DNA of 64,000 bases from Bacteroidales bacterium (GCA_027858955.1 JAQIBR010000205.1:3845-67844); one strand, 5' to 3'. Shown: positions 4,077 to 29,233, counted from the first letter of the stretch. A program made the numbers and translations. Notes: a model not told the origin generated them from the sequence alone.

Positions 4077-4461
4077 TTATCTAAAATGAACCTCCATTTC
4101 TTTTAAGAAATCTTTATCAATCCTGCCTGCCGCTACATGGTAACTAATAGTTTCCATTTTGTATAAAAACCTTTGTGCAGCATCTAAATATCCATTTTTT
4201 AAGAGGAAAATACTTCCTAGAGAAATAGCAATCCGTTTGTTACCATCTTGAAAACAATGACTTTTATTTGCTGCAAAAAAAAAGATGGGTTAACTTGTCA
4301 ATAAAAGTTGGATAATATAGGTCATTTTGAACATGTTCAAGAGCTGCATCTAATGACCCGATATTTATAATACCAATAGCTCCACCTCCACTAATAGCAA
4401 TTGTCTTTTTGTGAATATTGATAACATCTTGTATGTCTGTAATGTAGATTATTGTATTCAT
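4077..4461 (-). pseudogene. Doc/Fic family toxin, frameshifted in a 9-nt homopolymer
   Basis: Removing one base from the A9 run at 4275-4283 joins the 65-aa ORF to FFAANKSHCFQDGNKRIAISLG...HFR* (stop 4077-4079), 127 aa in total. HxFxDGNKR is the Doc-type motif. Confidence 0.85.
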
Positions 4462-5554: not shown

Positions 5555-6259
5555 TTAAACAAACTTCTCTCGCCTCTGCAAATTAACCATACTGCCTAAA
5601 ATGGCGATAACTGAAACGATAATAAGCATCAATCGGTTTTGATTAATCACATTCTGCCAAACGGTATGACTTAAATTAGACGGTGTATTCAATGGATTTA
5701 AGAAGATATTCCATTTGCTATATTCCAGAGGTTCAGCAAGTATAAAAAAGAACAGTCCAATAATGACCATAATTACTGCTGTGGCATTGGCATTCTTTAC
5801 CCATGTGGAAAAGAAAAAGGCCACACCGGCAATAAATAGCAGGGGATACATCAATTGATAGCTCAAGTAAAAAACGTGAACTTTAACCAAGGCGAAAACG
5901 GCGAACCAACTCATTAAAAGCAAAATTACAAACAAGAGTAATAAGCTGATGGCAAAGCGGAGAAGATAGACTTTATAACGGTAGTTTGGAACCCCAAATA
6001 TTATTTCGAGCATCCTGGCATCTTTATCATTTTGGATGCTGAAAATCACCGGATAAAAGATGACTAATATTCCAGGGAACAGGATGGTATTGTAGATCTC
6101 AAATTCCTGGACAGCATCATCATCAAATAACATAATGCCTATAATCATTAAATAAAAGGCCACAGCTGCGATTAAGAAGTAAATAAACTTACTTCCGAAA
6201 ACAATTTTTAGATTGTAAATCAAAGCATCTTTTACCAAATGTAGTTTTTCAAGTTTCAT
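5555..6259 (-). CDS. ABC-2-type membrane protein (about 6 TM)
   Basis: Hydrophobic 234 aa with an ABC-2-like TM pattern. It starts 2 bp after the RND-ATPase fusion stop. Confidence 0.65.
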   Translation of the reverse strand: MKLEKLHLVKDALIYNLKIVFGSKFIYFLIAAVAFYLMIIGIMLFDDDAVQEFEIYNTILFPGILVIFYPVIFSIQNDKDARMLEIIFGVPNYRYKVYLLRFAISLLLLFVILLLMSWFAVFALVKVHVFYLSYQLMYPLLFIAGVAFFFSTWVKNANATAVIMVIIGLFFFILAEPLEYSKWNIFLNPLNTPSNLSHTVWQNVINQNRLMLIIVSVIAILGSMVNLQRREKFV

Positions 6260-6261
6260 AT

Positions 6262-9200
6262 CTACAAGCCCCTTTTATTTGTGTTTAATAAACTTAAATA
6301 GGCATCTTCAAGATTGGCTTTTACAGATTTCGCATCCGCTGATGGAGCCTCATCAGCTAAACATCTTATGCGAATCTGATCGCCATCGCGCATGTGATGA
6401 ATTATCTTTAGATTGTCTTTTATATCATCAAATTCATCAGCTGGAATAGTCATCATCCAAACTTTGCCATCGGCTTTACCGGCCATATGAATAGGAGCAC
6501 CTAAATATTTTAGTTCGCCTTCTTTAATGACTGCCACACGATTACAAGAAGAGGCAACATCTTCGATAATATGTGTGGAGAAGATGACAATTCTTTCCTT
6601 GCTTAGTTCCACCAATAAATTACGGAAACGGATTCTCTCTCTTGGATCTAATCCGGCAGTTGGTTCATCTACAACAAGGATTCGAGGAAGATTCAGTAGA
6701 ATCTGGGCAATCCCAATACGTTGTTTCATTCCCCCTGAAAAGGAGCCTATCTTTTCGTTCCGATTGTCGAACATATGTACCGATTTTAGCACATAATCAA
6801 TCCTTTTTGAACGTTCTTCTTCATTATAAAGCTTTTTCAGAATACCCATATAATGCAAGAAATCGATGGCTTTCATATTTTCATACATGCCAAATTCCTG
6901 AGGGAGGTAACCGATCAAACCTTGCAGCTCTTCTCGTTTTTCTGAAACATCGATTCCATTGATGGTAATCTGACCATAACTTTGTTCCAATATTCCACAG
7001 ACAATGCGCATAAGTGTAGATTTACCAGCACCATTTGGACCTAGCAAGCCAAACATTCCTTTTTCTATGGTAAAGGAAACTCCTTTAACAGCTTTAAAGG
7101 GGACTTTCTTTTTTCCAATAATGGGGATGATTTTTACAAAGCGATAAAACGCCTTTCGGATGCCTTTAAACTTTCCTTTTAAGCGATTGACATTTACTTT
7201 TTCTTTATAAATTTTATCCGATGTAACCTTAATTAAAATAGCCAAATACCAAAGGAATCCCATCGGAATGATTAATCCAATCAAATCGTATTTTGCATTG
7301 AATAGATAGAGTGCAAAAGCAGGAAATCCCCAGAAAAGCATTTTGTAAGTGAACATAAACAAGAGCCTGATGAGCTTTCGTTTTTCCAAATCTTTAAGAT
7401 GCTGCGCATAGTGCTTGAATGGCGTTAAAATGCTTATAATAATTATATAAAGGAATACCGGTAAGAGAAAAGACCACAATCCGCTTTCTAAATGAAAATA
7501 GATGAAATAGATGCCAAAGGCGATTAACGGAAGTTGCCATAAGACTTGCTCAAAATCATTGATAGACTTGACTTCGTGAACTATACCAAGTCGTTTTCTG
7601 ATATTAATACCTGATTTCCATTCTCGTGTAAATTGACTGTCCCAATCGTAAATCTTAACCAGATTCCGAATATTAATAACCAAATCTTCATCTTCTCCGA
7701 TTAGCTTTTCTGAAGCCTGACGCAAACTGGTTTGTATAAAATATATAGTAACCGGAACACCGATAAGCAATACCAAATAGTCGATGAGTTGCCAGATTAT
7801 TGAATCGACTTCGGTATAGATGAGGTAGCCAAATCCTATATAAAGTACGCTCAGGATCAGCTTATTAGGGATTGATAATCCTTTTATCCATGCTAGTGAG
7901 CTTTGTAATCCAGAATATAAAGTTGGAATAAAAACCAGAGTCAGTATGGTGCTGATTGTTAGTCCGCCGATAACTGTAATTGCAAACGGCACACCGATTT
8001 GAGTTACATATTCGGCTTTGCCGAGAGCTAAAGGAATCAAGGCAATAATGGTGGTAATTGCCGTAATTAATATCGGCCTAACGCGAGCCAGTCCTGCCAT
8101 CATCAATGACCGGGTCTCGGTATATCCGCGTTTTTGGAGTACACGTGCATAATCGATCATAATAATCCCGTTATTCACCACAATTCCAAGCAAAATGAGG
8201 AAGCCTGTCAGCACATTTGCATTCATTAAGGATGTGCCCGTTAAGACCAATAATACCAATGAACCGATTGCTGCCAAAGGAATGGAAAACATCATCACCA
8301 CTGGAATTGTAAAGGATTCAAAAACTGATGCGAGTATCATATAAATCAAAACAAAAGCCATAAAGAGTAAGAAGCCAAATTCCGCCAATTGATTATCTTC
8401 ATGCTCAACTTCGATGGCCATATTTGAAGGTAGTTTTATCTTTTCAATGGTTTCATCAATCTCTAAACGAGCCGCTTCTAACAAATCATTGTCATCCGAA
8501 ATTTCAGATAAAAAAGAATAGGATAGCGTAAGTTGTTTTTCTTGATTGCTTCGGCGGATAGTGGACAGCCCTTGTGTAAAATTAAAACGACTAATATCTT
8601 GCATCTCAAAAGAGGTGCCCTGAGTTCCGCGTATATCCAGTTTTCGAAGATCGTCAACATTTCGTTCTTCTTGTTTATCATTACCAATGGTTTTGATGCG
8701 GATATCATAATCTTCCGTTCCTTGTTTAAAGGTAACACCGGTGGAGAACTCATGCTGGAAGGAATTTAATTCCGACATTACATTAGCTAAAGGAATATCA
8801 TAGGCAGCTAATAATTGCTTATCCATGTTAAGCTGAAGCTCCGGTCTCTTGTTTGGAATTCGGATATTGATGCGATTGATCGATGATAATTGCTCAATAT
8901 AGTATTTAACATCATTGGCCAGATTTAGCATCTGATCAAAATCTTGTCCTTTAATAATGATACTTTCGTTTTGGGAGCCTATTCCAAGAATGCTTCCAAA
9001 GTCATCTGCTTCATCGAAGCCACCATTTCCAAACCGACCACCAGAAGTAGGAGGGTCCCAGCTAAAATCGGCTAGAGGTAAATCGTCTATTTTCTCAAGG
9101 ATTTCATTTTTAATGGAAGGAATAGAAGAATTCCGAATCCCCTTATAGTCTTTTAAAAGCTTGATAGTTAATATGGCTTCTCCTTCATAAACCTGACTTA

Positions 9201-10977
9201 CAACATTCTCTTTTTCTTCTATTTCAATAATTTTTTTCTCTGCTTCGCGAATGATTAAATCAGTATTTTCAAGGGTAGTACCACTAGGTAAGGTGGCATA
9301 AAGGGTTAAATCTCTAAGCTCTGCTTCCTGATTACTCACTGCACTCAATGAAATACTTAATAATAAGGTGACAAAGAATAAACCCAGAGCTCCCATTACC
9401 GTTTTCCCAGGATTACGCATGCAAGTTTTTAAAAAGACAAAATAGATCTGAATGAGACGGTTATGATGATCAATATTTTCAAAGCAGACTGGTTTTGTAT
9501 CTTTTTTCAGGACAAGGAAAAAGTGAGTAACCATAGGCACCAAAAATAAGGCGACGGCCAAGGATACTACTAAAGTCGAAATAATAGAAACGCCAATGTT
9601 TTTTCCTAATATTCCAACAAAGAAATTGGTTGAGAATACGAAGGGTAAAAAGACCATAATTGTGGTCAAAGTAGCAGCGAATATCGAACGCCAAACTTCC
9701 TTTGTTCCTTGAATTACCGCTTGATCAGGATGCATTTTTTTAGCAGCCAGCCTGTAGATGTTTTCCAGTACCACAACACTATTGTCAAGGAGCATTCCAA
9801 TGGCTAAAGCCATGCCTAAAAGCGTTAAACTATTCAGGCTGATTTCTGCTGCGTAAAAGAAGTTAAATGCAGTAAAAACGGAGATAGGTATAGCCAGCGC
9901 AATAGCAGTAACCAATCGGATGTTCCGCAGAAAAATCCACAAAATAAAAATAGCTAATATTCCTCCAACCATCGCCAATTGCATGATAAGATCGATATTG
10001 TTTTCCATGGTTTCGGCCGTATTGGTTTGAATAACCAATTCAACATCTTTGTCGGCCAAAGCTTTATTTAGTACTGCAATCTGTTCTTTTACATCATCGG
10101 CTAAATCGATGATATTTGATTGAGCATCTCGTGTAAGCTGTATCGTAACAGCATCCATTCCGTTAACCCTACTGTAGGAATCTTCTTCGATAACTCCAAA
10201 ATTAATTTCAGCAATATCTTTTAATCGGATGGATCCTTGTTCTTTAATAATCAATTCATAGATGTCGGTGATATCATCAAATTCAGAAACCACATTTACG
10301 AAATGCAATTGATTGTTTTTTGTGACTTTCCCGGTAAAGACCCTGGCTCTGCTATTACTATTTAAAGCTGTACGAACATCTGCGGGACTGATGTCGTAGG
10401 CTTCACAAACGTCTTCTTTAAGTGTAATTTCGATGGATTTGTCGCGACCCCCAAATACTTCAGCATTGGCAACCCCTTCAATATTCTTCAGTTTATTGAT
10501 GATTTCTTTTTCCACTACCTGACGAACCCGATCAACGCCACCACTGCCTCGAACCTGAAGACTCATAAACATATTGTTCAAAGTCTCCAAATCGAATTTG
10601 AAAACATTGACAATAAATTCTTCAGGGATATTCTTTTTGGTTTCATCAATCTTCTCTACCAATTTTAGATAGGCATATTTGATATTGGTAGACTGCCTGA
10701 AACTGATACGGATATTGCCGCTTTGTTGTCCTGCAGTGGATTCAATTTTTTCAACGCCTTCCAATCCCCCAATGGCTCCTTCCAGTGGGATGATTGCCTG
10801 GCTTTCCATATAGCGCGGATCAACCTCGAGACCGGTATTTACTTGCACAAACAACATCGGTAGGGTTGCGTTCGGGTACAACTCCACATCCAGCTGCTTA
10901 TAGGAAAAATACCCCAACATGGTCAATGCTGTGAAGACCATGAGAATTAGGGTTTTTCTTTTTATGATAAAGTTCAT
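6262..10977 (-). CDS. AcrB-family RND permease fused to a C-terminal ABC ATPase (1571 aa)
   Basis: RND motifs GMLLDNSVVVLENI, GIVVNNGIIMID and RVRPILITAITT are followed by GPNGAGKS, FSGGMKQR, ILVVDEPTAG and IFSTH. Confidence 0.9.
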   Translation of the reverse strand: MNFIIKRKTLILMVFTALTMLGYFSYKQLDVELYPNATLPMLFVQVNTGLEVDPRYMESQAIIPLEGAIGGLEGVEKIESTAGQQSGNIRISFRQSTNIKYAYLKLVEKIDETKKNIPEEFIVNVFKFDLETLNNMFMSLQVRGSGGVDRVRQVVEKEIINKLKNIEGVANAEVFGGRDKSIEITLKEDVCEAYDISPADVRTALNSNSRARVFTGKVTKNNQLHFVNVVSEFDDITDIYELIIKEQGSIRLKDIAEINFGVIEEDSYSRVNGMDAVTIQLTRDAQSNIIDLADDVKEQIAVLNKALADKDVELVIQTNTAETMENNIDLIMQLAMVGGILAIFILWIFLRNIRLVTAIALAIPISVFTAFNFFYAAEISLNSLTLLGMALAIGMLLDNSVVVLENIYRLAAKKMHPDQAVIQGTKEVWRSIFAATLTTIMVFLPFVFSTNFFVGILGKNIGVSIISTLVVSLAVALFLVPMVTHFFLVLKKDTKPVCFENIDHHNRLIQIYFVFLKTCMRNPGKTVMGALGLFFVTLLLSISLSAVSNQEAELRDLTLYATLPSGTTLENTDLIIREAEKKIIEIEEKENVVSQVYEGEAILTIKLLKDYKGIRNSSIPSIKNEILEKIDDLPLADFSWDPPTSGGRFGNGGFDEADDFGSILGIGSQNESIIIKGQDFDQMLNLANDVKYYIEQLSSINRINIRIPNKRPELQLNMDKQLLAAYDIPLANVMSELNSFQHEFSTGVTFKQGTEDYDIRIKTIGNDKQEERNVDDLRKLDIRGTQGTSFEMQDISRFNFTQGLSTIRRSNQEKQLTLSYSFLSEISDDNDLLEAARLEIDETIEKIKLPSNMAIEVEHEDNQLAEFGFLLFMAFVLIYMILASVFESFTIPVVMMFSIPLAAIGSLVLLVLTGTSLMNANVLTGFLILLGIVVNNGIIMIDYARVLQKRGYTETRSLMMAGLARVRPILITAITTIIALIPLALGKAEYVTQIGVPFAITVIGGLTISTILTLVFIPTLYSGLQSSLAWIKGLSIPNKLILSVLYIGFGYLIYTEVDSIIWQLIDYLVLLIGVPVTIYFIQTSLRQASEKLIGEDEDLVINIRNLVKIYDWDSQFTREWKSGINIRKRLGIVHEVKSINDFEQVLWQLPLIAFGIYFIYFHLESGLWSFLLPVFLYIIIISILTPFKHYAQHLKDLEKRKLIRLLFMFTYKMLFWGFPAFALYLFNAKYDLIGLIIPMGFLWYLAILIKVTSDKIYKEKVNVNRLKGKFKGIRKAFYRFVKIIPIIGKKKVPFKAVKGVSFTIEKGMFGLLGPNGAGKSTLMRIVCGILEQSYGQITINGIDVSEKREELQGLIGYLPQEFGMYENMKAIDFLHYMGILKKLYNEEERSKRIDYVLKSVHMFDNRNEKIGSFSGGMKQRIGIAQILLNLPRILVVDEPTAGLDPRERIRFRNLLVELSKERIVIFSTHIIEDVASSCNRVAVIKEGELKYLGAPIHMAGKADGKVWMMTIPADEFDDIKDNLKIIHHMRDGDQIRIRCLADEAPSADAKSVKANLEDAYLSLLNTNKRGL

Positions 10978-11010
10978 TTTCTAGACTTTAGATAACAGAT
11001 GTAAACATCT

Positions 11011-14000
11011 TTATAAATCAATTTTTGTGAACCGGTCCTTTGTTGATTCAAATACATAATACACAGAAGGAATAACCACCAGGGTGAGCAGGGTAGAAGT
11101 TATTAATCCTCCAATAACTGCTATCGCCATAGGTGAACGTAAAGCCACGCTATCTCCAAAACCAATTGTTAGTGGTAATAGTGCAAGAATTGTAGTAACA
11201 CTAGTCATAAAAATTGGACGAATTCGATTTTCTCCTGCATTGATTATGGCGTCTTTTAGCGATAAGCCTTTTGCTTTGAATTTATTGATGGCATCCACCA
11301 AAATAATGGAATCGTTTACTGCAATTCCGGCTAACATGATTATCCCGATAAAGGCCATAATATTTAATGACTGACCCAGAAGGAAGAAAGCCCAAATGGC
11401 ACCCACGCCTGCCAATGGTATCGTTAATAAAATCGTAAATGGATGAATCAGGGATTCGAATTGAGATGCCATGACCATATAAACCAGTACTATGGATAAA
11501 ATTAATGCAAAGCCTAAGTTAGACATTGCTTCTTGCCTTTTTTGCTCTTCGCCAATCACATCTACCTGATATCCTTGTGGAATATCCATAGCCCCAATGA
11601 TGGCATCAACTTTTGCAATTGCCTGATCAAAAGCAATATCTTGTGAGATATCCGCGCTGATTTTGCTGATTCTATTTTGATTTCTACGGTGCAATTGCTT
11701 TGGAGATACAGATTCTTCAATATGTGCAAGCTCATAAAGCGGCACATAGTTGGAGCCACTACGAAGCTGGATATTGTTAAAATCGTATAAAGTTAACTCT
11801 GGCAAACGTAGTGTGATATCATTCATTTCACCCGATTGTTCATATTTTCCAGCATTTTTGCCCATGAGCAAATCTTTCAATTGTCCGCTAATATTATCTA
11901 CAGTCAGATTATGCATGGCAGCATTTTGTCGGTCGATAACAACGTCAATTTCGGGAGCACCTTCTTCAATAGAAGTTTCCAGATTCTGCAATTCGGGAAT
12001 ATTGGCCAATTGATTTTTTATATTATTTGAAATTTCCTCGAGTATATCAAGATCATCTCCTTTAACTTCGACCAATAAAGGAGCTTCATTGGTTCCCATT
12101 GTTGATTGAATGGCTGTTTCATCGCGTATGATTTGAATTTCTGCATCCGGAATATTTTCAAGTAAGCTTGATAGACTCGTGATAATTGTTTCCGATTGCT
12201 CGATTGCATCCTTTACCAAACGAACTTTTATGCTTGCTGTATTTTCGTTCTGGAAAACAGACTTATCTGTAGCAGTACCATCGGTTGGACCAATTTGGCT
12301 AAACACTAAATCGATGTTCTCTCCCAAAGCTTCTGTAATAAGATATTCGATGGAAGCAGTGGTGGAAACTGTTCGTTGTAGCTGTGTTCCTTCTTTTAAT
12401 TTTATCTCGATACTGAATTCTCCAGTCCCGCTTTTTGGCAGATACTCGCTTCCAACAAAGGGCAGTATTGCATAAGTTCCTCCTATCATGAGAAGGGCCA
12501 CTATAATTACAAGAACTCTTTGTTCAATAATTTTTGCCAGGAGTTTGCCATACCACCCAATGCGAATGGATTTGATTTCGTTTGGCTTGCTTGCTTTTTT
12601 TCGATAGGCCCAATTGAAAAGCATAGGAATTACTAAAATGGCTACAAATAGTGAAGCGAGCAAAGAGAAAGCCACGGTCCAGGCCTGATCTTTAAATAAA
12701 GCTCCCGAAGCACCATGAAGATAAACGATAGGAAGAAATACGACAATGGTGGTTAAGGTAGAAGCCGTAATCGCACCGGCAACTTCTGCTGTCCCGGATA
12801 TAGCTGCTTCTTTTACCGACATGCCTTGTTCCATATTTCGGAAGATATTCTCCATCACTACGATGGCATTGTCCACCAGCATTCCGGCCCCCAAGGCTAA
12901 ACCTCCCAAGGTCATGATATTTAGGCTTAGTCCATTAAAATACATCAGGTTAAATGTGGCAATAACAGATATAGGAATTGCAAAGGCGATGATTAGTGTA
13001 ACTTTTATTCTCCTCAAGAAAATAAAGAGTACAAACACCGCGATTAGTATCCCGATTAAGGCAGTTTCTTCGACTTCATCAATTGATTTTTGAATAAAAT
13101 CGCCCTGATTTTGCACCGTGATAAATTGATATCCTGGCAAAGCTTTACTTATTCCAATTAATGCTTCATTAAGATTTTTTACGGCAGTTACCGTATTGAA
13201 ACCTGTTTCTTTAAATATGGATAATCCAACACAGCGTTGTCCGTTGATACGGACGATATTTTTTGGGTCTTTATTTACAAAACTGACTTTAGCAATATCT
13301 TTTAGATAGACCGGTACTTTGTCTGCAACGGTAGCTTGTTGATTTTCTGATTGTGATGAAGAAGCTGTAGGAGCTTTATAGCTGACGATGATATTTTTAA
13401 GAGCATCAAGGTCTTCAACCAAACTACTCCCTTTAATAATGTATTTTTTCCCCATCTCAACAACAGTACCGCCACTAACACTACGGTTCATATTTTGAAT
13501 CTGGCTTACTACTTGATTTACACTTAATCCATGAGCATCCAAAAGGTAAGCTTCGGTTTCGATTAAAACTTCTTTTTCTTCGGTTCCAGTCAGGTTTACT
13601 TCAGCAATTCCTTCCAGTCGGATTAACTCATTTCGGATGTAGTTTTCTCCAACTTTACGGAGTTCATCCATATCGCTAATGGTGGGATTCAACATCCCAA
13701 TTGTCATTATGGGAGAAGCATTCGGATCGTGTTGGGTGATGGTAAATTCATCGATAGTAGACATTTGACTGTAGGTAGTCATTGCTTTTTGCAAGTCTAA
13801 AAAGGCTTCGTCCATATCCGTTCCCCAACTGTATTCAACGGTCACACGTGCCGATCCAACCATACAAACAGAAGAGACCTGAATAACGCCTTTTTGTCGG
13901 ATAGCCTGGGATTCTATACTTTCTATATACTGTTTCTCGATTTCTTCAGGTGGTTGTTCGCCAGCATTGATCTCAACAAAAATTCGGGGGGCATTCATCT

Positions 14001-14118: not shown

Positions 14119-14181
14119 GTAAAATTAATTTTTAATAAATAGGTGACATGAAACTTGAGTGCATAGTATTTCTTGTTCCGT

Positions 14182-15231
14182 TTATTTTACAATTTTAACT
14201 TTAGAGCGATCACGAAGGGTTTCAAATCCTTTGATAACCAAACGGTCGTTTTCGCTCAAGCCACTAATGACTTGAACATTATCAGGATTTTCCAAACCGA
14301 AAGTAATAATGCGTTCTTCGGCAAGTCCTTTGTTAATGACAAAAACAGTATTTCCTTTTTGTTTTGATAAGATGTATTCCTTTGGGATGACAATCGTATT
14401 TTCAGCTTTAGAAATTATGATTTCGCTCTTGGTAAACATGCCCGGCAATAGGATCAAATCTTTATTGCTTATGTTTAAAACGGCTTTGAATGAAAGTGTT
14501 TCCGGGTCGAAGGAAGGCGAGATTTGGGCGATTATTCCCTTTAGGGTATCGTCTGGTAAAGTGTAATTCATTATTCTTACTTCCTGCCCTGTATTAATTG
14601 TTTTAAAGTTTTTGCCAGCCAGGTTGACTTCCATAAATAATTCGCTGTAATCCATTATTTTAATAACGTCTTGACCAGTTGCGATTTGGGTTTTTGGTGT
14701 ATAATAGGGTAGCTCAACAATTACACCGGTAAATGGTGCTACAACTGCCATTTTCTCCAGCTGAATAAGTGCATTGTCTAAATTATTTTGAGCATTGATA
14801 TAGGCGATTTCGGAGTCTTTCACATCTTTTTGAGTTACTCCGCCTTTTTCGAAAAGTGATTTTTGTTTTTCGTAAACTTGTTTGCTGATATCTAAACTCA
14901 GTTTTAGGGAGTTATGTTTGATGTTGTTTAGGTATTCTTTATTTTCAACTAACAGAACCACATCATTTTCTTTCACTTTATCACCCAATGCATATTTTTT
15001 TCCGGTTGCGGGATTGATTTGTAAATTATATATACCGCTGATTTCTGTTTTTAAAGTGGTTTCCTTTAGCGGTTTCACGGTGCCTGTTGTGCTAATATAT
15101 TTTTCAATAGATTGCGGTTTAATTTCAAGCACAGAGACTGGTATTGAGATGTCTTTATTCAAATCTCGCTCATCATCATTGCAAGAACTGAATACCAGGA
15201 TGGCTACTAAAAATACGAAAAATCGTTTCAT
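14182..15231 (-). CDS. RND efflux periplasmic adaptor (MFP) lipoprotein
   Basis: Lipobox LVFSSC, lipoyl/hairpin pattern (VVAPFTGVIV) and C-terminal VISGLSENDRLVIKG. Likely start is ATG 15231; the ORF track gives 15261. Confidence 0.9.
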   Translation of the reverse strand: MKRFFVFLVAILVFSSCNDDERDLNKDISIPVSVLEIKPQSIEKYISTTGTVKPLKETTLKTEISGIYNLQINPATGKKYALGDKVKENDVVLLVENKEYLNNIKHNSLKLSLDISKQVYEKQKSLFEKGGVTQKDVKDSEIAYINAQNNLDNALIQLEKMAVVAPFTGVIVELPYYTPKTQIATGQDVIKIMDYSELFMEVNLAGKNFKTINTGQEVRIMNYTLPDDTLKGIIAQISPSFDPETLSFKAVLNISNKDLILLPGMFTKSEIIISKAENTIVIPKEYILSKQKGNTVFVINKGLAEERIITFGLENPDNVQVISGLSENDRLVIKGFETLRDRSKVKIVK

Positions 15232-15306
15232 GGTATTAAATTTATAAAGTGTGTATTTCATGATATTTTCTTTTATCGATTTGCTCTAATTAATAAAACT
15301 GTCAGC

Positions 15307-16809
15307 TTAATTATCTTCATTGATTGGACTGCTCATATTACTTTGTAACTCTTGTGAAATAAAAGAACGGTTATTTTCAAAATCCCAAAGCGATTGAATT
15401 TTAAGGTTCAATAATTCCAATTTATAATTGATTAAAGCATTGGCTCTGTTCATTTTCTTTTCGGATAACTGATTTTGGAAACGCTCCAAATCTATACTTG
15501 TTAAATCACCATTTCGAAAGCGTTCTAAATTGATATCGTAGGTCATTTCTGCGTTCCTTACATTTTGATCGGCTATTCCAATCTGACGAATTAAATTATT
15601 CAGATTGCGATATACTTTTCGAATATTGATGATGATATCATTTTCAAGATCTTTCAGATCAATTTTGGTAGATTCTAAGGAAAGCTCCGCTGCTTTAATT
15701 CTTGCTTTGCGTGCGCCCCAATCAAAAAGTGGGATAGAGAAAGTAATATTTGCCTGAGGGCTTTTGGTGGGTTTATCATAAACATCGGTTAAAACGGGAT
15801 CATTTCCCATCATTCCCATCGATAAGCTTACATCGCCTCTAAATTTATTATTCGCGCTAGTTTGAATTAAATCGAACTGAGCATAAGTAATGCTGATTTC
15901 TTTTTGTTGAAGTTCCAATCTTTGTTTTAATCCGTTCTCAACTGCCTGGTCAAGATTGACAGGGACTTCTTTGTATTGGATATCAGCAATCACTTCTATT
16001 TCTTCATTAAGTGAAATTCCTAATAACCTTTTAAAATCATCTTTAGAGTTTTCAAGCGCTACTTTCTGGTCTTCAAGATTTGAGCTCGATGTTGCATAAT
16101 TTAATTCTGCCTGAAATAATTCTTCTCTGGCCAATAGATCACCTTCAACTTTACTTTCCACAATACTTCTGCTTACTTTTTGATTTTCAAAGTCTTCAAT
16201 CGCAATTTGTAAGGACATTTGTTTTTGATAAATATCGTAAAATGCTTGAGAAACATATTTTTCCATATTCAACATTTCGATGGAATATGCTAACGTCGCA
16301 TTCTCTAGATTAAGTTGATTGCGCTCCAAGTTCATCTTTGTTTGATTGTAGACAAAGAGGGGTTGAACATACTGCAAATACAAATTATTACTAAAGCCTT
16401 TATCTGCAATTTCAATTCCACCCGTCCCTGAAACATTATCATAATATTCAAATCGATTGATGAGCGACAAAGTACCATCAAAAATTTTAATGGGTTGTGA
16501 AACAGATAATTGCCCTGATGATTTCATCGATTCGCTTGAATACCATGCTGACCTAAGCTCATCGTAAGAATCCTGATTTACATAAGAGAAAGGTGTAATA
16601 TCAAAGGCAAATCTCGATTTTAAAGAAGCAAGTTGCGCATTCAAAAGCTCTTTATTTTGCTCCATATTCAATCTGGAACGTTTAATATCCGGACTGTTTT
16701 CAAAAGCAATATCCAAAGCTTCTTCCAAAGTTACTTTTTGTTGCGAAAAGCCTGGAGCACTTAGGCCAGCAATCAAGCAGGTGATGAAGAGCAGTTTTGT
16801 GAATTTCAT
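15307..16809 (-). CDS. TolC-family outer membrane factor
   Basis: Signal peptide, SIPLFDWG motif and helical repeats, adjacent to the MFP and RND genes. Confidence 0.9.
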   Translation of the reverse strand: MKFTKLLFITCLIAGLSAPGFSQQKVTLEEALDIAFENSPDIKRSRLNMEQNKELLNAQLASLKSRFAFDITPFSYVNQDSYDELRSAWYSSESMKSSGQLSVSQPIKIFDGTLSLINRFEYYDNVSGTGGIEIADKGFSNNLYLQYVQPLFVYNQTKMNLERNQLNLENATLAYSIEMLNMEKYVSQAFYDIYQKQMSLQIAIEDFENQKVSRSIVESKVEGDLLAREELFQAELNYATSSSNLEDQKVALENSKDDFKRLLGISLNEEIEVIADIQYKEVPVNLDQAVENGLKQRLELQQKEISITYAQFDLIQTSANNKFRGDVSLSMGMMGNDPVLTDVYDKPTKSPQANITFSIPLFDWGARKARIKAAELSLESTKIDLKDLENDIIINIRKVYRNLNNLIRQIGIADQNVRNAEMTYDINLERFRNGDLTSIDLERFQNQLSEKKMNRANALINYKLELLNLKIQSLWDFENNRSFISQELQSNMSSPINEDN

Positions 16810-16834
16810 TGTGTATTATTTATATTGTTATCGT

Positions 16835-19800
16835 TTAATTCTTTATCCATTTAATAGCGTCGGCAGAAATCATCATGCCTTTTGATTTATTGGTCATATC
16901 AACAATTGATGTTTCGGGTGTAATGAAGAAAGTCCCCATATAATTCCATCCACTTTCTACATCTTTATCAAGTAATGTAATGTCTTCAATGCCATCTTCG
17001 TGATGTATTCTAAAATTGAAACTTGCATTGTTGTTTCTGCTTCTACCATTTCTCCTAAAACTAACATTTATCTTTTCGATGTGGCAATAGATATCGTAAT
17101 AAGCTGGTTCTGTTATTTCAGCATTCCAGGTCGCCGTTCTATTACCTTCTCCTGATGCAGTGTACAAAGCAGATCTAACATATTTACCGTAATATCCAGA
17201 TCGAACTACTGCGGTCCATCTTGATGGCGGACTCCACCAGCGAATTCCCTGGTATTTATAGCCTTCTTTTCTGCTCTTGTCAACTAAAGATTTTAAATAG
17301 CTGAGATTTAAATCCTCAAAATAGGTGAATCCTTCATCCTCATTGTCAACGATAATAGCATTTGGCTCATCTAAATTTGCAAAGAATTCAGTTGATCTTT
17401 TACCTTCAAAACCTTTTCCTTTACGAATATCATCACTACCCTCTAAGTCGTAAATCAGATTATTAGGAAGGTTCTCGGAAATGTGTGTAAAGAAATTAAT
17501 CCGAGTGGGCTCATTATTGAATATATAACCAAACTCAATAGCTTTTCCTGCAGGAATATGAATTTTTTGTGTGAAATCCGGAAGCACTTGATTGTCTTCA
17601 TTTCTAGTTTCTTGGTTTTCCATATCCGCAATGAAAGTAATGAGGCCATCAACAGGTTCTGGATTGGCAATTTTAAAAGTAACTTGATATTTGGTATAAT
17701 CTCCATCCATCACTTTAAAAGATTCAATATCCTTAATTAAAAAGCCAGGTAATTTTTTTGTTTCATACCAATCTGCTATTTCAGTTGTGATATTACTCTT
17801 GAATTGTTTTTCGAACACTTCATTTAAATCTTCAAAAGAATAGCTTTGATGCTGATGATTCTCAACAAATTGATTTAAGACGGCATTGAATTCAGCTGTT
17901 CCGTATCGGGCTCTGAATAAACTAAATAAATGATCTCCTTTTGCTTGTATGATATCGTTTAGGCTAATTTGTTCATCAAAATCAAGCGTTTTGTCACGTA
18001 TTTCTAATCCGGAAATAAGCAATTCCTGAAGTGAAGCATCTTTCAGCTCTAAATTAATACGCTCTCCTTTATTGATATCGGTAAAGAACCAGCGATAACT
18101 AGACACAACATTAGAATTCCGTTCTTTAAGATAAATACCTAGAGAAAGATCCAGCATAGGCCATTTTTCACTTCTCAATTGGCTAATAAAATTGTAATAA
18201 TTAGGAAATATAGTGAAGGAATTTCGATCCATTATTTCTTCATACTGGTACCATTCCTGATGATTTGCCATATAATTACCTCGGACAAATCGCTTGAAAA
18301 TTCTCTCTTGAATATCTTGTGGTGTTACTTCTTCATTATCCCTTTCCATACGTCTTTCGAATCGGATTTTACGACTTCTAAAATCAGTTTCTTCTAGGGT
18401 AACTCCTTTTTCAGGGTAAAAAATGATTTCGGGCTGTACCGCGTCGCTGGCAATGGAATATATGTGTTTATCCAAAGCAAAGTGTACTGGAACTTCTGCC
18501 ATAAACAAGCGTTTAAACGGGTAGGTCAGGCCAATGGCTGTTTCGTATTCATTCTTCAAATCGCGAATCATCCCCGGTAGGCTATCTGAAATATCCGTGA
18601 AGTGCTGTGTAAAGAATTCATTTCCCTTAATGGCATAAATTCCATATTCGATGGAGTCTACTGTTAGGCTGTATTTCTGATAATCGCCAATTAACAAACT
18701 AAGTTGCGTTAATGGAAATTCAGGTTCAAAAGTAAATTCGCCTGCTGCATCAGAACTCTGGGCGCCTTGTGAAATAGCCACCAGATTGTCGCTTGTAATT
18801 ACCTTAAGATTAAAATTTGTAAAATCCGGGGCGTAGTAAGCGGGCCTAACAGTTGTATAGCTTACACCTGCCGTTGGATACCATAGGGATTCCCTAGTTA
18901 AGCATACAAAGTCTTCGTTTAGATAGGCAAAGCGTTTACGGACTCTAAAGATTTCAATATTAAAATCGTTTTTAAATTCTTCGGGATCTAAATCAAGAAA
19001 ATGCGTGCGTTCATCAATACCTCCTTCGTAGTCGAAACTTAGTTCATGAGTGGATAGTTCGGAAATGGCATTTGGAAGAATTAAACGAATAAGATGCAAG
19101 TCTCGTACAAAATCAATCGCTTGATCATCGAGCTTTACAGCTCTTATTTTTAACAAGGGATTCAGATTGAAAATTAAAGTATCGATGATGGTCCCGGAAT
19201 TATTCTGTATAATTAAATCGGACTGCATCTGGATGCTTTCTCCTTTGTGGTTTAAAACGATAGTGTTTTCTATAACATCCACTTTGGTTTTGAAAGCATA
19301 TTGATTGTTCAGGGCAATCATTTCTTGCTTGAGCTCAATGGTATCTTCTTTTAAGCTGATATATTTGTTAATCAATACCCCACCGAATGCAAGGAAAATG
19401 ATACCTATAATAAGAGGAAGTGATGTTAGTTTTTTTGATTGAGGCAAGCGATTAATCTTGAATATGGTAATGAAGATCAATCCCAGGCCAAGAAAGAAAT
19501 AGATGCTTCTGTGAATCACGATTTCATTTAGGTTTCCAAAACCAGCAATTTCGGAATTCATCATGGGTACTGTATAGGCTATAAAATCGAATAAATGATA
19601 CAGTTTATTATTTAAATAGAAGATGGTTAATGCAATATAACCGAGCAGAATAATAAATGTAATGGCTTGATTTTTAAAAAGTATCATCATGCTGAAGGAC
19701 AATCCCAGAATAAAAACAAGTGTTGGCAAACTAATGAGTAGAGGGTATAAAAAGAGCTGACCTAATCCAAGGGAAGAATCACTTGCGAGAAAAGAAAACC

Positions 19801-20191
19801 CGATTCCCACCAATAAAAGGATAAGGTTGAGAATTATAAAAACATAAAGGATGCCTATTGATTTCCCAATGATATATTCTGCATTTGTCATTGAGCGTGC
19901 ATAAATAACTTCAACGGTATCGTTTTTGCGATCTTGCTTCAAAAATTCCGAAGCTAAAAATACAGCCACTATGGCTTGACCAAGATTTAAGATTAGAAGA
20001 TTTACATAAGCGATATTTCCCGGTAATGCTCTATACAACCATGGTGCACCGCTGGATTCGACAAAAATAGCTGCATTAAAAATACCTAAAAAGACAATGG
20101 AAAGCCCTGCAAAAATCCGAAAGAACCAGGAGCGGAGCAGGGTCTTCATCTCAAAGCGAGCAATCGTATTTATTTTTTTTATTGAGAGCAT
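16835..20191 (-). CDS. ABC-2 permease fused to a large extracytoplasmic region (M1-peptidase-like, no HExxH) and a C-terminal golvesin/xanthan-lyase-CBM-like module
   Basis: About 6 N-terminal TMs (EMKTLLRSWFFR..., DTVEVIYARSMTNAEYIIGK), then WYPTAG, then C-terminal YDIYCH...GWNYMGTF...ADAIKW. Domain names come from motif recognition. Confidence 0.65.
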   Translation of the reverse strand: MLSIKKINTIARFEMKTLLRSWFFRIFAGLSIVFLGIFNAAIFVESSGAPWLYRALPGNIAYVNLLILNLGQAIVAVFLASEFLKQDRKNDTVEVIYARSMTNAEYIIGKSIGILYVFIILNLILLLVGIGFSFLASDSSLGLGQLFLYPLLISLPTLVFILGLSFSMMILFKNQAITFIILLGYIALTIFYLNNKLYHLFDFIAYTVPMMNSEIAGFGNLNEIVIHRSIYFFLGLGLIFITIFKINRLPQSKKLTSLPLIIGIIFLAFGGVLINKYISLKEDTIELKQEMIALNNQYAFKTKVDVIENTIVLNHKGESIQMQSDLIIQNNSGTIIDTLIFNLNPLLKIRAVKLDDQAIDFVRDLHLIRLILPNAISELSTHELSFDYEGGIDERTHFLDLDPEEFKNDFNIEIFRVRKRFAYLNEDFVCLTRESLWYPTAGVSYTTVRPAYYAPDFTNFNLKVITSDNLVAISQGAQSSDAAGEFTFEPEFPLTQLSLLIGDYQKYSLTVDSIEYGIYAIKGNEFFTQHFTDISDSLPGMIRDLKNEYETAIGLTYPFKRLFMAEVPVHFALDKHIYSIASDAVQPEIIFYPEKGVTLEETDFRSRKIRFERRMERDNEEVTPQDIQERIFKRFVRGNYMANHQEWYQYEEIMDRNSFTIFPNYYNFISQLRSEKWPMLDLSLGIYLKERNSNVVSSYRWFFTDINKGERINLELKDASLQELLISGLEIRDKTLDFDEQISLNDIIQAKGDHLFSLFRARYGTAEFNAVLNQFVENHQHQSYSFEDLNEVFEKQFKSNITTEIADWYETKKLPGFLIKDIESFKVMDGDYTKYQVTFKIANPEPVDGLITFIADMENQETRNEDNQVLPDFTQKIHIPAGKAIEFGYIFNNEPTRINFFTHISENLPNNLIYDLEGSDDIRKGKGFEGKRSTEFFANLDEPNAIIVDNEDEGFTYFEDLNLSYLKSLVDKSRKEGYKYQGIRWWSPPSRWTAVVRSGYYGKYVRSALYTASGEGNRTATWNAEITEPAYYDIYCHIEKINVSFRRNGRSRNNNASFNFRIHHEDGIEDITLLDKDVESGWNYMGTFFITPETSIVDMTNKSKGMMISADAIKWIKN

Positions 20192-20218
20192 CTCTGGCTT
20201 GTATTTAATGTGCTAATT

Positions 20219-21103
20219 TTACTTGTGATTTGTTAAATGTTCCATATAATAGACATAGGCATGTTCAAGGTTTGGTTCGATCTCAATGGCATTGCTGGCT
20301 TCAATATTGTCGCCAACCAATTGAACTTCCCATCCATCCTCTGTCGGAATAGTTGAAATGACTGCGTATTTTTCTTTCAGCATATCGTATTCGTATCCAG
20401 AGGCTGTTACTTGCCAAACATGTCCTTTTGTTTTAGCAATAAGCTCTTCTGGAGAACCTGTAAACTCAACAAATCCGTTGTTCAATAAGGCCAGATTATT
20501 ACAGCCACTCGAAATATCGCCAACAATATGTGTTGATAAAACGATAATGACATCTTTCTGACTCAGTTCGGATAAAATATTACGAAATCGGATACGTTCT
20601 TCAGGATCGAGGCCTGTAGTTGGTTCATCGACGACGATAATTTTCGGATCTCCAATTAAAGCTTGAGCAATACCAAGTCGTCTTTTCATACCGCCTGAAA
20701 GATTGTTTGCATCACGATCGCGGAAATCAAATAAGCCAACTTTTTCCAGCCATTCATCAACTTTGGCTGATCGTACTTTTTTCTGATTCAGTCCGGAAAG
20801 TCCAGCAGCATAGTCTAAGAATTCCCAGGTTTTAAGTTTGGTGAAAAAGCGGAAGTCTTGAGGTAGATAGCCTAACATTTGCCGAATTTCCTTTCTATTT
20901 TTAATCAGATCGAAATTATCTATTTTTACACTTCCTGCGCTTGGCAAAAGCATAGTTACAAGTATGCGCATCAAACTAGATTTCCCTGCGCCATTTGGCC
21001 CTAATAACCCAAACATTCCACTGCCAATTTCCAGATTTATATCAGAAAGAGCTTTCTTGCCGTTGCTATAAACCTGACTTAAATTGTTAATTTCGATCTT
21101 CAT
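20219..21103 (-). CDS. ABC transporter ATP-binding protein
   Basis: GPNGAGKS, LSGGMKRR, IIVVDEPTTG, LSTH. Confidence 0.93.
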   Translation of the reverse strand: MKIEINNLSQVYSNGKKALSDINLEIGSGMFGLLGPNGAGKSSLMRILVTMLLPSAGSVKIDNFDLIKNRKEIRQMLGYLPQDFRFFTKLKTWEFLDYAAGLSGLNQKKVRSAKVDEWLEKVGLFDFRDRDANNLSGGMKRRLGIAQALIGDPKIIVVDEPTTGLDPEERIRFRNILSELSQKDVIIVLSTHIVGDISSGCNNLALLNNGFVEFTGSPEELIAKTKGHVWQVTASGYEYDMLKEKYAVISTIPTEDGWEVQLVGDNIEASNAIEIEPNLEHAYVYYMEHLTNHK

Positions 21104-22697: not shown

Positions 22698-22719
22698 GGT
22701 TTTAAAATAAATTAGCGAA

Positions 22720-24144: not shown

Positions 24145-24154
24145 CCTTAGTTTT

Positions 24155-26291: not shown

Positions 26292-26307
26292 ATCTTCAAT
26301 TTTTTTA

Positions 26308-28357: not shown

Positions 28358-29233
<876 letters not shown>

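What the first reader, a model, noticed from the sequence alone, without database searches (positions are those of the whole stretch)
5555..21103. Seven-gene ABC-RND hybrid export system
One tightly packed operon runs: ABC ATPase, ABC-2 TMD with large periplasmic domain, TolC, MFP, RND, RND-ABC ATPase fusion, ABC-2 TMD. The parts add up to one heterodimeric ABC transporter (two TMDs, two paralogous NBDs, one carried on an RND chain) plus a two-subunit RND-MFP-TolC pump. Characterised tripartite pumps are either proton-driven RND (AcrAB-TolC, MdtABC) or ATP-driven ABC (MacAB-TolC). I know of no characterised RND chain carrying an NBD. Inference: a physically tethered ABC-to-RND relay, or an ATP-energised RND exporter, for a large or processed substrate.
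Basis: partly seen in the sequence, partly recalled or inferred. Interest (0 to 1): 0.85.

Follow-up and report, generated by a model that had tools for sequence, protein, structure and literature searches.

The report
Conserved RND pump fused to ABC ATPase
A seven-gene operon found in hundreds of Bacteroidota species really does encode an efflux-pump subunit (RND type) permanently joined to an ATP-burning ABC domain, a combination no paper in the searched library describes, though what it exports and how the two engines cooperate is still unknown.

Summary
Seven tightly packed minus-strand genes (5555-21103) encode an ABC ATPase, an ABC-2-like permease with a large periplasmic domain, a TolC-family channel, an RND-type adaptor, an RND permease, an RND permease fused to an ABC ATPase (1571 aa), and a 6-TM permease.

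The fusion is not an artefact. Three independent metagenome runs hold it without differences. At least 120 protein clusters have the same length and domains. Relatives of its linker occur in 457 species genomes, almost all Bacteroidota. Gene order is kept wherever enough flank is available.

New details:
- The "linker" is six extra transmembrane helices. Four of them appear to be inserted inside the ATPase domain, between its first strand (A-loop) and the rest.
- Both ATPases keep all catalytic motifs.
- The periplasmic domain of gene 2 has an M1-aminopeptidase fold but lacks the zinc motifs.
- Both RNDs lack AcrB's D408 and K940. So do unfused relatives from Firmicutes and spirochaetes, so this does not argue for ATP-driven RND.

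Best reading (inferred): a NosFY/ABC-2-type heterodimeric ABC module tethered to an MdtBC-like two-paralog RND-adaptor-channel pump, working as a relay. No publication describing it was found. The mechanism is untested.

The parts
20219..21103 (-). g1: free ABC ATPase (NBD1, 294 aa), a paralog of the NBD carried on g6
   Evidence: Pfam ABC_tran E=1.2e-30. Canonical Walker A, Q-loop, LSGGM signature, Walker B with Glu, D-loop and H-loop. It aligns end to end with the g6 NBD, including a shared C-terminal extension. An ABC ATPase of about 295 aa lies directly upstream of g2 in L001 and L084, and one gene away in L085.
19301..20191 (-). g2 N-terminal membrane domain (residues 1-297, about 7 TM helices), ABC-2/NosY-like permease
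   Evidence: Hydropathy gives about 7 TM segments and the AF2 model shows helices over 4-297. JGI names homologs 'ABC-type transport system involved in multi-copper enzyme maturation permease subunit'. No Pfam model matches this domain.
16838..19300 (-). g2 periplasmic C-terminal part (residues 298-1118): M1-aminopeptidase-like fold without catalytic motifs, then a Golvesin_C/CBD-like beta-sandwich
   Evidence: AF2 pTM 0.75. Foldseek best matches are ERAP1, IRAP and PepN, E about 1e-17 over about 640 columns. No HExxH or GxMEN motif. Pfam Golvesin_C at 991-1115, E=4.3e-11.
15307..16809 (-). g3: TolC-family outer-membrane factor (500 aa)
   Evidence: Pfam OEP, two repeats, E=1.6e-37. NCBIfam type_I_sec_TolC E=1.3e-23, below its cutoff.
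14182..15261 (-). g4: RND-type periplasmic adaptor (MFP, 359 aa), probably a lipoprotein
   Evidence: NCBIfam RND_mfp 175.9 bits, above the 94.9 cutoff. Pfam HlyD_D23 and HlyD_3, plus a weak LPAM_1 match at 11-28.
11011..14118 (-). g5: stand-alone RND permease (1035 aa), the companion paralog of the g6 RND domain (about 29% identity)
   Evidence: Pfam ACR_tran over 1-1020 of 1021, E=8.6e-216. Best solved relative is MdtB, 9lyq. TM4 reads VD416N; TM10 reads VN935D936.
7912..10977 (-). g6 residues 1-1022: complete RND permease domain
   Evidence: Pfam ACR_tran over 3-1018 of 1021, E=4.9e-156. Best solved relative is MdtB. TM4 LLD398N and TM10 VVN935N936 are conserved in nearly all family members compared.
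7711..7872 (-). g6 residues 1036-1089: extra TM hairpin (TM13-TM14) after the RND domain
   Evidence: Hydropathy. AF2 helices at 1036-1056 and 1060-1089, pLDDT 80-89. The charge distribution in the loops fits the positive-inside rule.
7645..7689 (-). g6 residues 1097-1111, 'VINIRNLVKIYDWDS': displaced first strand and A-loop Tyr of the NBD
   Evidence: It aligns with the g1 N-terminus KIEINNLSQVY. Ile and Lys are invariant and Tyr nearly invariant across 15 members whose linkers share 22-61% identity with the window's. Splicing it onto the NBD extends profile matches to model positions 1-3 and adds 2.6-8.8 bits. AF2 predicts a strand at 1101-1104, at low confidence.
7129..7644 (-). g6 residues 1112-1283: insertion inside the NBD, made of an amphipathic helix, four TM helices (TM15-18) and a basic helix
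   Evidence: AF2 helices at 1112-1129, 1139-1162, 1166-1197, 1201-1230, 1233-1258 and 1271-1283, with the TM helices at pLDDT about 80-91. The segment is absent from paralog g1. This domain is found only in proteins of this family.
6265..7128 (-). g6 residues 1284-1571: remainder of the ABC ATPase (NBD2) with a C-terminal extension domain
   Evidence: Pfam ABC_tran at 1298-1441, E=2.5e-29. Walker A at 1313, Q-loop at 1358, FSGGM at 1413, Walker B D1437-E1438, D-loop at 1442, H-loop at 1467. Foldseek best matches are TM_1403, NosF of NosDFY and ABCA NBDs.
5555..6259 (-). g7: 6-TM ABC-2-like permease (234 aa). Its ATG starts 2 nt after the g6 stop codon.
   Evidence: Six hydrophobic segments. 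Weak Pfam ABC2_membrane_3 match, E=5.7e-4, below the cutoff. A homolog lies downstream of the fusion in nearly every locus whose sequence reaches that far, 45-82% identity.

Best explanation
WHAT IT IS (shown). This is a conserved seven-gene operon of Bacteroidota. It encodes one composite envelope machine built from two known engines.

Engine 1 is a tripartite RND pump. It has two distant RND paralogs (g5 and the first 1022 residues of g6), one RND-type adaptor (g4) and one TolC-family channel (g3). The gene layout matches MdtABC/MuxABC.

Engine 2 is an ABC-2 ('type V', NosFY/ABCA-like) transporter with two different halves:
- free ATPase g1, encoded next to permease g2;
- the ATPase at the C-terminus of g6, encoded next to permease g7.

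Both ATPases have intact catalytic motifs. The g6 ATPase is welded to the RND chain through six extra TM helices. Two follow the RND domain. Four are inserted within the ATPase, between its first strand/A-loop and the rest.

Permease g2 carries an ~820-residue periplasmic module with an M1-aminopeptidase fold that has lost the zinc-binding motifs, plus a carbohydrate-binding-like beta-sandwich.

HOW IT WORKS (inferred).
1. The two NBDs form a heterodimer under the g2/g7 membrane domains.
2. ATP binding and hydrolysis move those domains and the periplasmic pseudo-peptidase clamp. This would extract a substrate from the cytoplasm or inner membrane, or capture and present it in the periplasm.
3. 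The substrate is handed to the periplasmic entrance of the adjacent RND pump.
4. The RND pump uses the ion gradient to expel it through the adaptor and the channel.

The covalent tether and the extra helices would fix the two engines side by side at a defined stoichiometry. An MdtB2C-like (g5)2(g6)1 trimer would supply exactly one NBD to pair with one g1. A (g6)3 trimer with three g1 is equally possible.
For: Genes, domains and spacing.

The fusion is real here.

The fusion is conserved:
- The best 120 listed protein clusters (67-100% identity) are almost all 1544-1591 aa (two shorter, truncated entries) and all carry ACR_tran plus ABC_tran. They include isolates of Marinifilum, Labilibaculum and Ancylomarina.
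- The linker domain occurs in only 94 clusters at 50% identity. Every full-length hit is 1550-1585 aa with the linker at about 1025-1300.
- Distant members keep the architecture at 31-53% RND identity, 23-40% linker identity and 50-67% NBD identity.
- 457 GTDB species genomes encode a linker relative.

The operon is conserved:
- The order g2-g3-g4-g5-g6-g7 holds in every locus with enough flank.
- g1 lies upstream of g2 in three genomes whose outer neighbours differ from the window's.

The NBDs:
- They are paralogs and both look catalytically complete.
- The NBD fold is closest to TM_1403, NosF and ABCA.

The split NBD. TM topology obeys the positive-inside rule.

The g2 periplasmic domain has an M1 fold without catalytic motifs.

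Both RNDs are full length and closest to MdtB, a subunit of a known heterotrimeric RND (PMC8277102 for MdtBC heterotrimers).

The RND transmembrane signature equals that of unfused relatives, so there is no sign that ion coupling was abandoned.
Against: - No experiment, no multimer model and no substrate clue exists. Flanking genes are not conserved, so there is no biosynthetic or regulatory context.
- The TMD assignment of g2 and g7 to the ABC-2 family rests on weak or sub-threshold matches.
- Whether the displaced strand really docks into the NBD sheet could not be inspected. Only summary data of the model were available, and pLDDT there is 47-63.
- Heterodimer and heterotrimer stoichiometries are inferred from gene content only.
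- Both RNDs lack two of the three residues essential in AcrB. Their coupling ion and mechanism are themselves uncharacterised.
Confidence: 0.5

Rival explanations
1. ATP-energised or ATP-gated RND. The NBD heterodimer, acting through the six extra TM helices packed against the RND transmembrane domain, drives or licenses the RND conformational cycle itself. ATP would replace or supplement the ion gradient. g2 and g7 would serve as accessory membrane partners.
For: - The NBD is covalently attached to the RND chain through well-predicted TM helices rather than a flexible cytoplasmic linker.
- Both RND paralogs lack the AcrB-type D408 and K940, and all the closest solved RND structures whose alignments were shown keep DD and K.
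- The fusion has been kept over deep divergence.
Against: - Unfused RND pumps of the same clade (Brevibacillus, Acetoanaerobium, Treponema, Leptospira) show the same single-Asp TM4 and Lys-less TM10. The pattern therefore predates the fusion and is not linked to it.
- The conserved TM4 Asp and the TM11 RxRP motif are retained in both paralogs.
- A full complement of ABC-2-like TMDs (g2, g7) is present, as expected for an ordinary ABC transporter whose NBDs act on their own TMDs.
- No precedent is known.
Confidence: 0.18
2. Two functionally separate transporters that are merely co-expressed and co-localised. The fusion would only ensure co-assembly, equal dosage or membrane targeting, or let the NBD act as an ATP or energy-state sensor that regulates the RND pump. 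No substrate would pass from one to the other.
For: - Each engine has a complete set of parts on its own.
- Gene fusions of operon neighbours often arise without new mechanisms.
- One genome carries the gene split by a frameshift between TM14 and the NBD strand. If that split is real, the two halves may be able to work apart.
Against: - The fusion and the family-specific six-helix module are conserved in all intact loci across 457 species. They show purifying conservation of specific residues.
- The two split cases sit in assemblies where frameshift errors are plausible. L054 has many frameshifts.
- The linker domain was not seen in any complete protein outside the fused context.
Confidence: 0.25
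3. Assembly, read-through or annotation artefact. The RND and ABC genes would really be separate.
For: None found beyond two loci with frameshifts (L002, L054).
Against: - Three independent runs assemble the junction identically.
- At least 120 clusters and more than 70 species loci have a continuous ORF.
- Complete genomes of cultured isolates carry it.
Confidence: 0.01

Closest known systems
MdtABC / MuxABC-type RND pumps (two different RND permease genes with one adaptor; MdtB2C heterotrimer)
   Same: Two adjacent paralogous full-length RND genes lie next to a single RND-type adaptor gene. MdtB (9lyq) is the best solved-structure match for both g5 and g6. A TolC-family channel is used.
   Different: - g5 and g6 share only about 29% identity.
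- One paralog carries six extra TM helices and an ABC ATPase.
- TM4 has D-N instead of D-D, and TM10 lacks the Lys.
- The outer-membrane channel is encoded in the operon.
- Heterotrimer formation has not been tested.
MacAB-TolC (ATP-driven tripartite ABC efflux pump)
   Same: An ABC ATPase, a permease with a large periplasmic domain, an adaptor and a TolC-family channel are encoded together. An ATP-powered periplasmic 'mechanotransmission' step is plausible.
   Different: - MacB is NBD + 4 TM + periplasmic domain of the FtsX type and forms a homodimer.
- Here the permeases are 6-7 TM and ABC-2-like, with no FtsX match.
- Here the NBDs are two different paralogs, and an RND pump is also present.
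- The adaptor scores as RND type (175.9 bits) and only weakly against MacA (62.7 bits, cutoff 342).
NosDFY (ABC-2/type V ABC complex that powers a periplasmic partner)
   Same: NosF is among the best structural matches of the g6 NBD (7osf_B, 7o0y). JGI names g2 homologs as the NosY-type permease. In both, a large periplasmic protein module sits on the permease.
   Different: - NosFY is a homodimer with a separate beta-helix protein, NosD.
- Here there are two different NBDs and two different TMDs.
- Here the periplasmic module is an M1-peptidase-like fold fused to the permease.
- No nos genes are nearby.
E. coli YbhGFSR (ABC-2 exporter with two different permeases YbhS/YbhR, a two-NBD ATPase YbhF and an adaptor-like YbhG)
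   Same: It has the ABC-2 class, two non-identical TMDs, two NBDs, and association with an adaptor-family protein (own knowledge; the system is described in PMC7190983, found).
   Different: - In YbhF the two NBDs are fused to each other, not to an RND.
- It has no RND partner.
- It has no large periplasmic domain.
M1 zinc aminopeptidases (PepN, ERAP1, IRAP)
   Same: The predicted multi-domain fold of g2 residues ~300-960 matches them (Foldseek E about 1e-17 over about 640 aligned columns). There is also a weak Pfam Peptidase_M1 hit.
   Different: - HExxH-18-E and GxMEN are absent.
- Sequence identity is 10-13%.
- The domain is anchored to a 7-TM permease and followed by a Golvesin_C domain.
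- It is most likely a non-catalytic binding or clamp module.

Membership tests
RND permease (Pfam ACR_tran; HAE-type) | Full-length match to the family profile, with 12 TM helices and two large periplasmic loops | tested here: met
   g5 covers 1-1020 of 1021 (719 bits). g6 covers 3-1018 of 1021 (522 bits). The TM segments lie in the expected places.
RND permease (AcrB-type proton relay) | TM4 Asp-Asp pair (AcrB D407/D408) and TM10 Lys (K940); residue numbering is from own knowledge | tested here: not met
   - g6 has D398-N399 and N935-N936.
- g5 has D416-N417 and N935-D936.
- MdtB and the other solved RNDs whose alignments were shown have DD and K.
- The pattern is conserved in orthologs.
- It is shared with unfused relatives.
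- The TM11 RxRP...T motif is kept.
ABC ATPase (ABC_tran) | Walker A, Q-loop, LSGGQ-type signature, Walker B with catalytic Glu, D-loop and H-loop | tested here: met
   All six motifs are present in g1 and in g6 residues 1313-1469. Pfam E-values are 1e-30 and 2.5e-29.
ABC ATPase (ABC_tran) | A contiguous NBD with the first strand and A-loop immediately before Walker A | tested here: not met
   In g6 the strand/A-loop (1097-1111) is separated from the rest by about 170 residues containing four TM helices. g1 is contiguous.
ABC-2 / type V permease (NosY, GldF, YbhS/R class) | Six TM helices and a significant match to an ABC-2 membrane profile | tested here: inconclusive
   - g7 has 6 TM helices, but ABC2_membrane_3 reaches only 19.5 bits against a 31.6 cutoff.
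- g2 has about 7 TM helices and no Pfam TMD hit; JGI's COG-based name is NosY-like.
- hhalign of g7 against the g2 TMD gives E=0.022, not significant.
- There are no PDB sequence hits.
MacB-type tripartite ABC pump | N-terminal NBD fused to a 4-TM FtsX-type permease with a periplasmic domain between TM1 and TM2 | tested here: not met
   No FtsX or MacB_PCD match occurs in any of the seven proteins. The TM counts are 6-7.
MdtBC-type heteromeric RND | Two different RND permease genes adjacent to each other and to one adaptor gene | tested here: met
   The order g4-g5-g6 is conserved in all loci with enough flank.
MdtBC-type heteromeric RND | The two paralogs assemble into one heterotrimer | not testable with these tools
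   No multimer prediction or biochemical data are available.
M1 zinc aminopeptidase | HExxH-(18)-E zinc site and GxMEN exopeptidase motif | tested here: not met
   Neither motif is present in g2. The fold is nevertheless M1-like.
TolC-family outer-membrane factor | Two OEP repeats | tested here: met
   Pfam OEP, two stretches, E=1.6e-37.
RND-type periplasmic adaptor (MFP) | A score above the curated cutoff of TIGR01730 | tested here: met
   175.9 bits against a cutoff of 94.9.

The most novel reading that the evidence does not exclude
The ABC ATPase pair does not merely feed the RND pump. It would drive or gate the RND conformational cycle through the six family-specific TM helices. That would make this the first RND transporter coupled to ATP hydrolysis, either a dual-energised pump or an ATP-licensed one. 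The NBD's own first strand would be pulled apart by a membrane insertion that acts as the force-transmitting element.
Probability: 0.15. Interest if true: 0.95.

Novelty: new variant of a known kind. Interest (0 to 1): 0.78.

Why it matters
Tripartite efflux pumps are classified by the energy source of their inner-membrane component: ABC, RND or MFS (PMC8277102). This system is a natural, widely conserved chimera that puts an ATPase and an RND permease on one polypeptide. It is surrounded by the remaining parts of both machines.

If the two engines cooperate, the system would give:
- a direct model for how substrates are passed from a cytoplasm- or membrane-facing ABC transporter to a periplasm-facing RND pump, a hand-off long proposed for separate pumps;
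- a test of whether RND cycling can be coupled to ATP.

It also shows an ABC ATPase domain that tolerates a four-helix membrane insertion after its A-loop. And it adds a non-catalytic M1-peptidase scaffold as a periplasmic module of a permease.

Cultured hosts exist (Marinifilum, Labilibaculum, Ancylomarina, Perlabentimonas), so the system is experimentally reachable.

Tried and rejected
1. Proton-relay argument for ATP energisation. Both RNDs lack AcrB D408 and K940. I rejected this as evidence after fetching unfused RNDs from Brevibacillus, Acetoanaerobium, Treponema and Leptospira plasmids. They have the same single-Asp TM4 and Lys-less TM10.

2. Profile search of the 5.8-billion-protein set with a 15-sequence linker alignment (A1). 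It returned only 16 mostly fragmentary proteins, probably because of the word prefilter. It did reveal a split copy and an Ignavibacteriales fragment.

3. A1 was too diverse for the genome scan. A narrower alignment, A2, worked. A first attempt with wrong frame coordinates failed.

4. Split copies.
- L002 has a single frameshift between TM14 and the NBD strand.
- L054 has many frameshifts in g5 and g6.
- I judged both most likely assembly errors or a recent pseudogene, not a natural two-gene form.
- P0252 and similar short proteins are contig-end fragments.

5. Relatedness of g7 and the g2 TMD by hhalign was not significant. PDB sequence searches for g2, its TMD and g7 gave no hits.

6. The terminator and promoter scan downstream of g7 was uninformative. 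The sigma-70 consensus is not appropriate for Bacteroidota.

7. Literature searches for an RND-NBD fusion, and a targeted term search in a comprehensive 2021 review, found nothing. A search on 'golvesin' gave only the eukaryotic namesake and a lectin survey.

8. The model coordinates could not be inspected, so docking of the displaced strand into the NBD sheet remains unverified.

Full report
OBSERVATION

The window carries seven consecutive minus-strand ORFs at exactly the stated coordinates. The intergenic gaps are 27, 25, 45, 63, 33 and 2 nt.

Pfam and NCBIfam identify the genes as follows:
- g1 (20219-21103): an ABC ATPase.
- g2 (16835-20191, 1118 aa): a membrane protein with about seven N-terminal TM helices, a weak Peptidase_M1 match and a Golvesin_C domain.
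- g3 (15307-16809): a TolC-family outer-membrane factor.
- g4 (14182-15261): an RND-type adaptor, above the curated cutoff.
- g5 (11011-14118): a full-length RND permease.
- g6 (6262-10977, 1571 aa): a full-length RND permease (residues 2-1022) followed by an ABC ATPase (ABC_tran at 1298-1441).
- g7 (5555-6259): a 6-TM protein with a sub-threshold ABC-2 match.

Upstream, after a 385-nt gap, lie the unrelated [FeFe]-hydrogenase maturation genes HydF and HydG.

IS THE FUSION REAL?

Three saline-spring metagenome runs hold the junction. One 16.9-kb contig spans 5400-11200 with no mismatch or indel.

A search of 5.8 billion proteins returned at least 120 clusters of 67-100% identity. Nearly all are 1544-1591 aa (two are shorter, truncated entries), and all have ACR_tran and ABC_tran. 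They include cultured Marinifilum, Labilibaculum and Ancylomarina.

The ~273-residue segment between the two domains was searched alone against 1.84 billion cluster representatives.
- It matched only 94 proteins.
- Every full-length one is 1550-1585 aa, with the segment at about residues 1025-1300.
- The rest have lengths and match positions consistent with being fragments.

Distant members still have the same architecture at 31-53% (RND), 23-40% (linker) and 50-67% (NBD) identity to the window protein. Names attached to them include Cyclobacteriaceae, Rikenellaceae and, as a partial sequence, Ignavibacteriales.

A scan of one genome per GTDB species found 457 genomes encoding a linker relative. 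The closest is an uncultured Draconibacterium, with 80% identity in the linker and 88% over the fusion.

Two loci have the gene interrupted:
- L002 has one frameshift between TM14 and the NBD strand.
- L054 has many frameshifts across g5 and g6, typical of an error-prone assembly.

IS THE GENE SET CONSERVED?

tblastn of the seven proteins against 83 fetched loci shows the order g2-g3-g4-g5-g6-g7 wherever the flank reaches far enough. In all but L002 and L054, g6 aligns as one continuous segment.

g1 lies upstream of g2 in Marinifilum fragile (L001) and in two other genomes (L084, L085). Their outer neighbours differ from the window's, and in L085 a small PDDEXK_3 gene is inserted between g1 and g2. 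The conserved unit is therefore exactly these seven genes.

ANATOMY OF THE FUSION

The segment between the RND and the recognised ABC_tran match is not a flexible linker. Hydropathy and an AlphaFold2 model of residues 1020-1571 (mean pLDDT 76) give the following order:
- two TM helices (1036-1056, 1060-1089);
- a short strand (1101-1104);
- an amphipathic helix (1112-1129);
- four TM helices (1139-1258, pLDDT about 80-91);
- a basic helix (1271-1283);
- the NBD.

Loop charges follow the positive-inside rule, which places the NBD in the cytoplasm.

The motif around the strand, 'I.IRNLVKIYD..RF.REW', is the most conserved part of the segment. Ile and Lys are invariant and Tyr nearly so, across 15 members with 22-61% linker identity. 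It aligns with the N-terminus of paralog g1 (KIEINNLSQVY), that is, with the first beta-strand and the A-loop aromatic residue of an ABC ATPase.

NCBIfam models match the native g6 NBD only from model position ~15. When the motif is spliced directly in front of residue ~1272, the matches extend to positions 1-3 and gain 2.6-8.8 bits.

I therefore read the NBD as interrupted after its A-loop by a ~170-residue, four-helix membrane insertion. The sequence evidence is good. Whether the strand docks into the NBD sheet in the model could not be inspected, and local confidence there is low.

THE TWO ATPASES AND THE TWO PERMEASES

g1 and the g6 NBD are paralogs (about 41% identity). They align over their whole length, including a C-terminal extension. 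Both have canonical Walker A, Q-loop, signature, Walker B with Glu, D-loop and H-loop, so neither ATP site looks degenerate.

Foldseek places the g6 NBD nearest to TM_1403, to NosF of the NosDFY complex and to ABCA-family NBDs. This is the ABC-2/type V class.

- g7 has six TM helices.
- g2 has six plus a seventh helix that puts its C-terminal ~820 residues in the periplasm.
- Assignment of both to the ABC-2 class is weak at the sequence level.

Gene adjacency (g1-g2, and g6 NBD-g7 with a 2-nt gap) suggests two unlike half-transporters forming one heterodimeric ABC module. This is inference.

THE g2 PERIPLASMIC DOMAIN

The AlphaFold2 model has pTM 0.75. It shows a beta-domain, a helical/thermolysin-like domain and further beta-sandwiches.

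Foldseek matches M1 aminopeptidases (ERAP1, IRAP, PepN) at E about 1e-17 over about 640 columns. The HExxH and GxMEN motifs are absent, and no PDB sequence match exists.

The C-terminal beta-sandwich is Pfam Golvesin_C, which UniRef names 'Golvesin/Xly CBD-like'.

The domain is best read as a non-catalytic binding or clamp module.

THE RND HALVES

Both g5 and the g6 RND domain are complete and are most similar to MdtB among solved structures.

Relative to AcrB and MdtB:
- Both have Asp-Asn instead of Asp-Asp in TM4.
- Both have Asn instead of Lys in TM10.
- g5 has Asn-Asp there in 49 of 70 orthologs and Asn-Asn in 20.
- g6 nearly always has Asn-Asn.
- The TM11 RxRP motif is kept.

Every closely matching solved RND whose alignment was shown has DD and K. 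This looked like evidence that proton coupling had been given up in favour of ATP.

However, the nearest unfused RNDs in the plasmid collection show the same single-Asp TM4 and Lys-less TM10. They come from Brevibacillus, Acetoanaerobium, Treponema and Leptospira. The pattern is a clade trait that predates the fusion, so I withdrew the argument.

MECHANISM

Shown:
- the parts;
- their conservation;
- the covalent tether;
- catalytic competence of both NBDs at motif level;
- the pseudo-peptidase fold.

Inferred: a heterodimeric ABC-2 module (g1 + g6 NBD; g2 + g7) sits beside, and is physically tied to, a g5/g6 RND pump that works with g4 and g3. ATP-driven movements of g2/g7 and the periplasmic clamp would deliver substrate to the RND entrance. 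The ion gradient would drive expulsion through the adaptor and channel.

An MdtB2C-like (g5)2(g6)1 trimer would give one NBD to pair with one g1. A (g6)3(g1)3 arrangement is also possible.

Rivals:
- an RND cycle driven or gated by ATP through the extra helices;
- two independent pumps fused only for co-assembly or regulation;
- an artefact, which is refuted.

The substrate is unknown. Flanking genes vary between genomes and give no hint.

COMPARISON AND NOVELTY

The system combines features of:
- MdtABC (two RND paralogs and one adaptor);
- MacAB-TolC (an ATP-driven tripartite pump, but with a different permease fold);
- NosDFY and YbhGFSR (ABC-2 modules with periplasmic or adaptor partners).

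None of these has an NBD on an RND chain, an NBD interrupted by TM helices, or an M1-like periplasmic module.

Automatic annotation already labels the protein with both functions (JGI: 'multidrug efflux pump subunit AcrB/ABC-type multidrug transport system ATPase subunit'). No paper describing or characterising it was found in the searched library. A term search in the major 2021 review found no mention of one, and that review sorts inner-membrane components into ABC, RND and MFS.

I rate it a new variant of known kinds rather than categorically new, because every module is known and no function has been demonstrated. It is a well-supported and experimentally reachable oddity.

Noticed in passing
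window 28565-29233 (+): A 222-aa ORF matches only the C-terminal part (profile positions 515-734 of 734) of monomeric isocitrate dehydrogenase. No ORF for the N-terminal ~510 residues lies upstream. It looks like a truncated gene remnant.
   Followed up: partly
window 21489-27492 (-): Directly upstream of the operon lie HydF, HydG, an [FeFe]-hydrogenase large subunit with its small-subunit domain, and an NuoF-like flavoprotein. The host is probably a fermentative anaerobe. These genes are unrelated to the pump and are not its neighbours in other genomes.
   Followed up: partly
window 682-3948 (+): A 1088-aa protein with two FtsX-type permease domains (MacB/LolC-like class) lies convergent to the operon, about 1.6 kb downstream of g7. 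No ATPase partner was looked for.
   Followed up: no
window 4458-5207 (-): A 249-aa ORF with a TTG start lies 347 nt downstream of g7 on the same strand. It has no Pfam or NCBIfam match. It is not part of the conserved set in L001 or L002.
   Followed up: partly
L087 (Leptospira interrogans plasmid NZ_CP097317.1, 7465-11058): Leptospira plasmids carry an adaptor followed by two tandem RND permease genes of the same single-Asp, Lys-less clade. This is another possible two-paralog RND pump outside Proteobacteria.
   Followed up: no
L001 14736-14912; L085 9512-9898: Small lineage-specific insertions occur inside the operon. Marinifilum fragile has a 58-aa ORF between the fusion and g7. Another genome has a PDDEXK_3 gene between g1 and g2.
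   Followed up: no
L034 versus L046: A 3.47-kb contig binned as 'Candidatus Neomarinimicrobiota' matches the window proteins with the same identities and coordinates as a 3.47-kb contig from a Bacteroidetes MAG in the same isolate series (BH27 and BH23). This is probably a binning error, not occurrence of the system outside Bacteroidota. The two contigs were not aligned to each other.
   Followed up: no
window 34721-36016 (+): A GWxTD-domain protein lies next to a 654-aa family-2 glycosyltransferase at 36802-38766. It was not examined.
   Followed up: no
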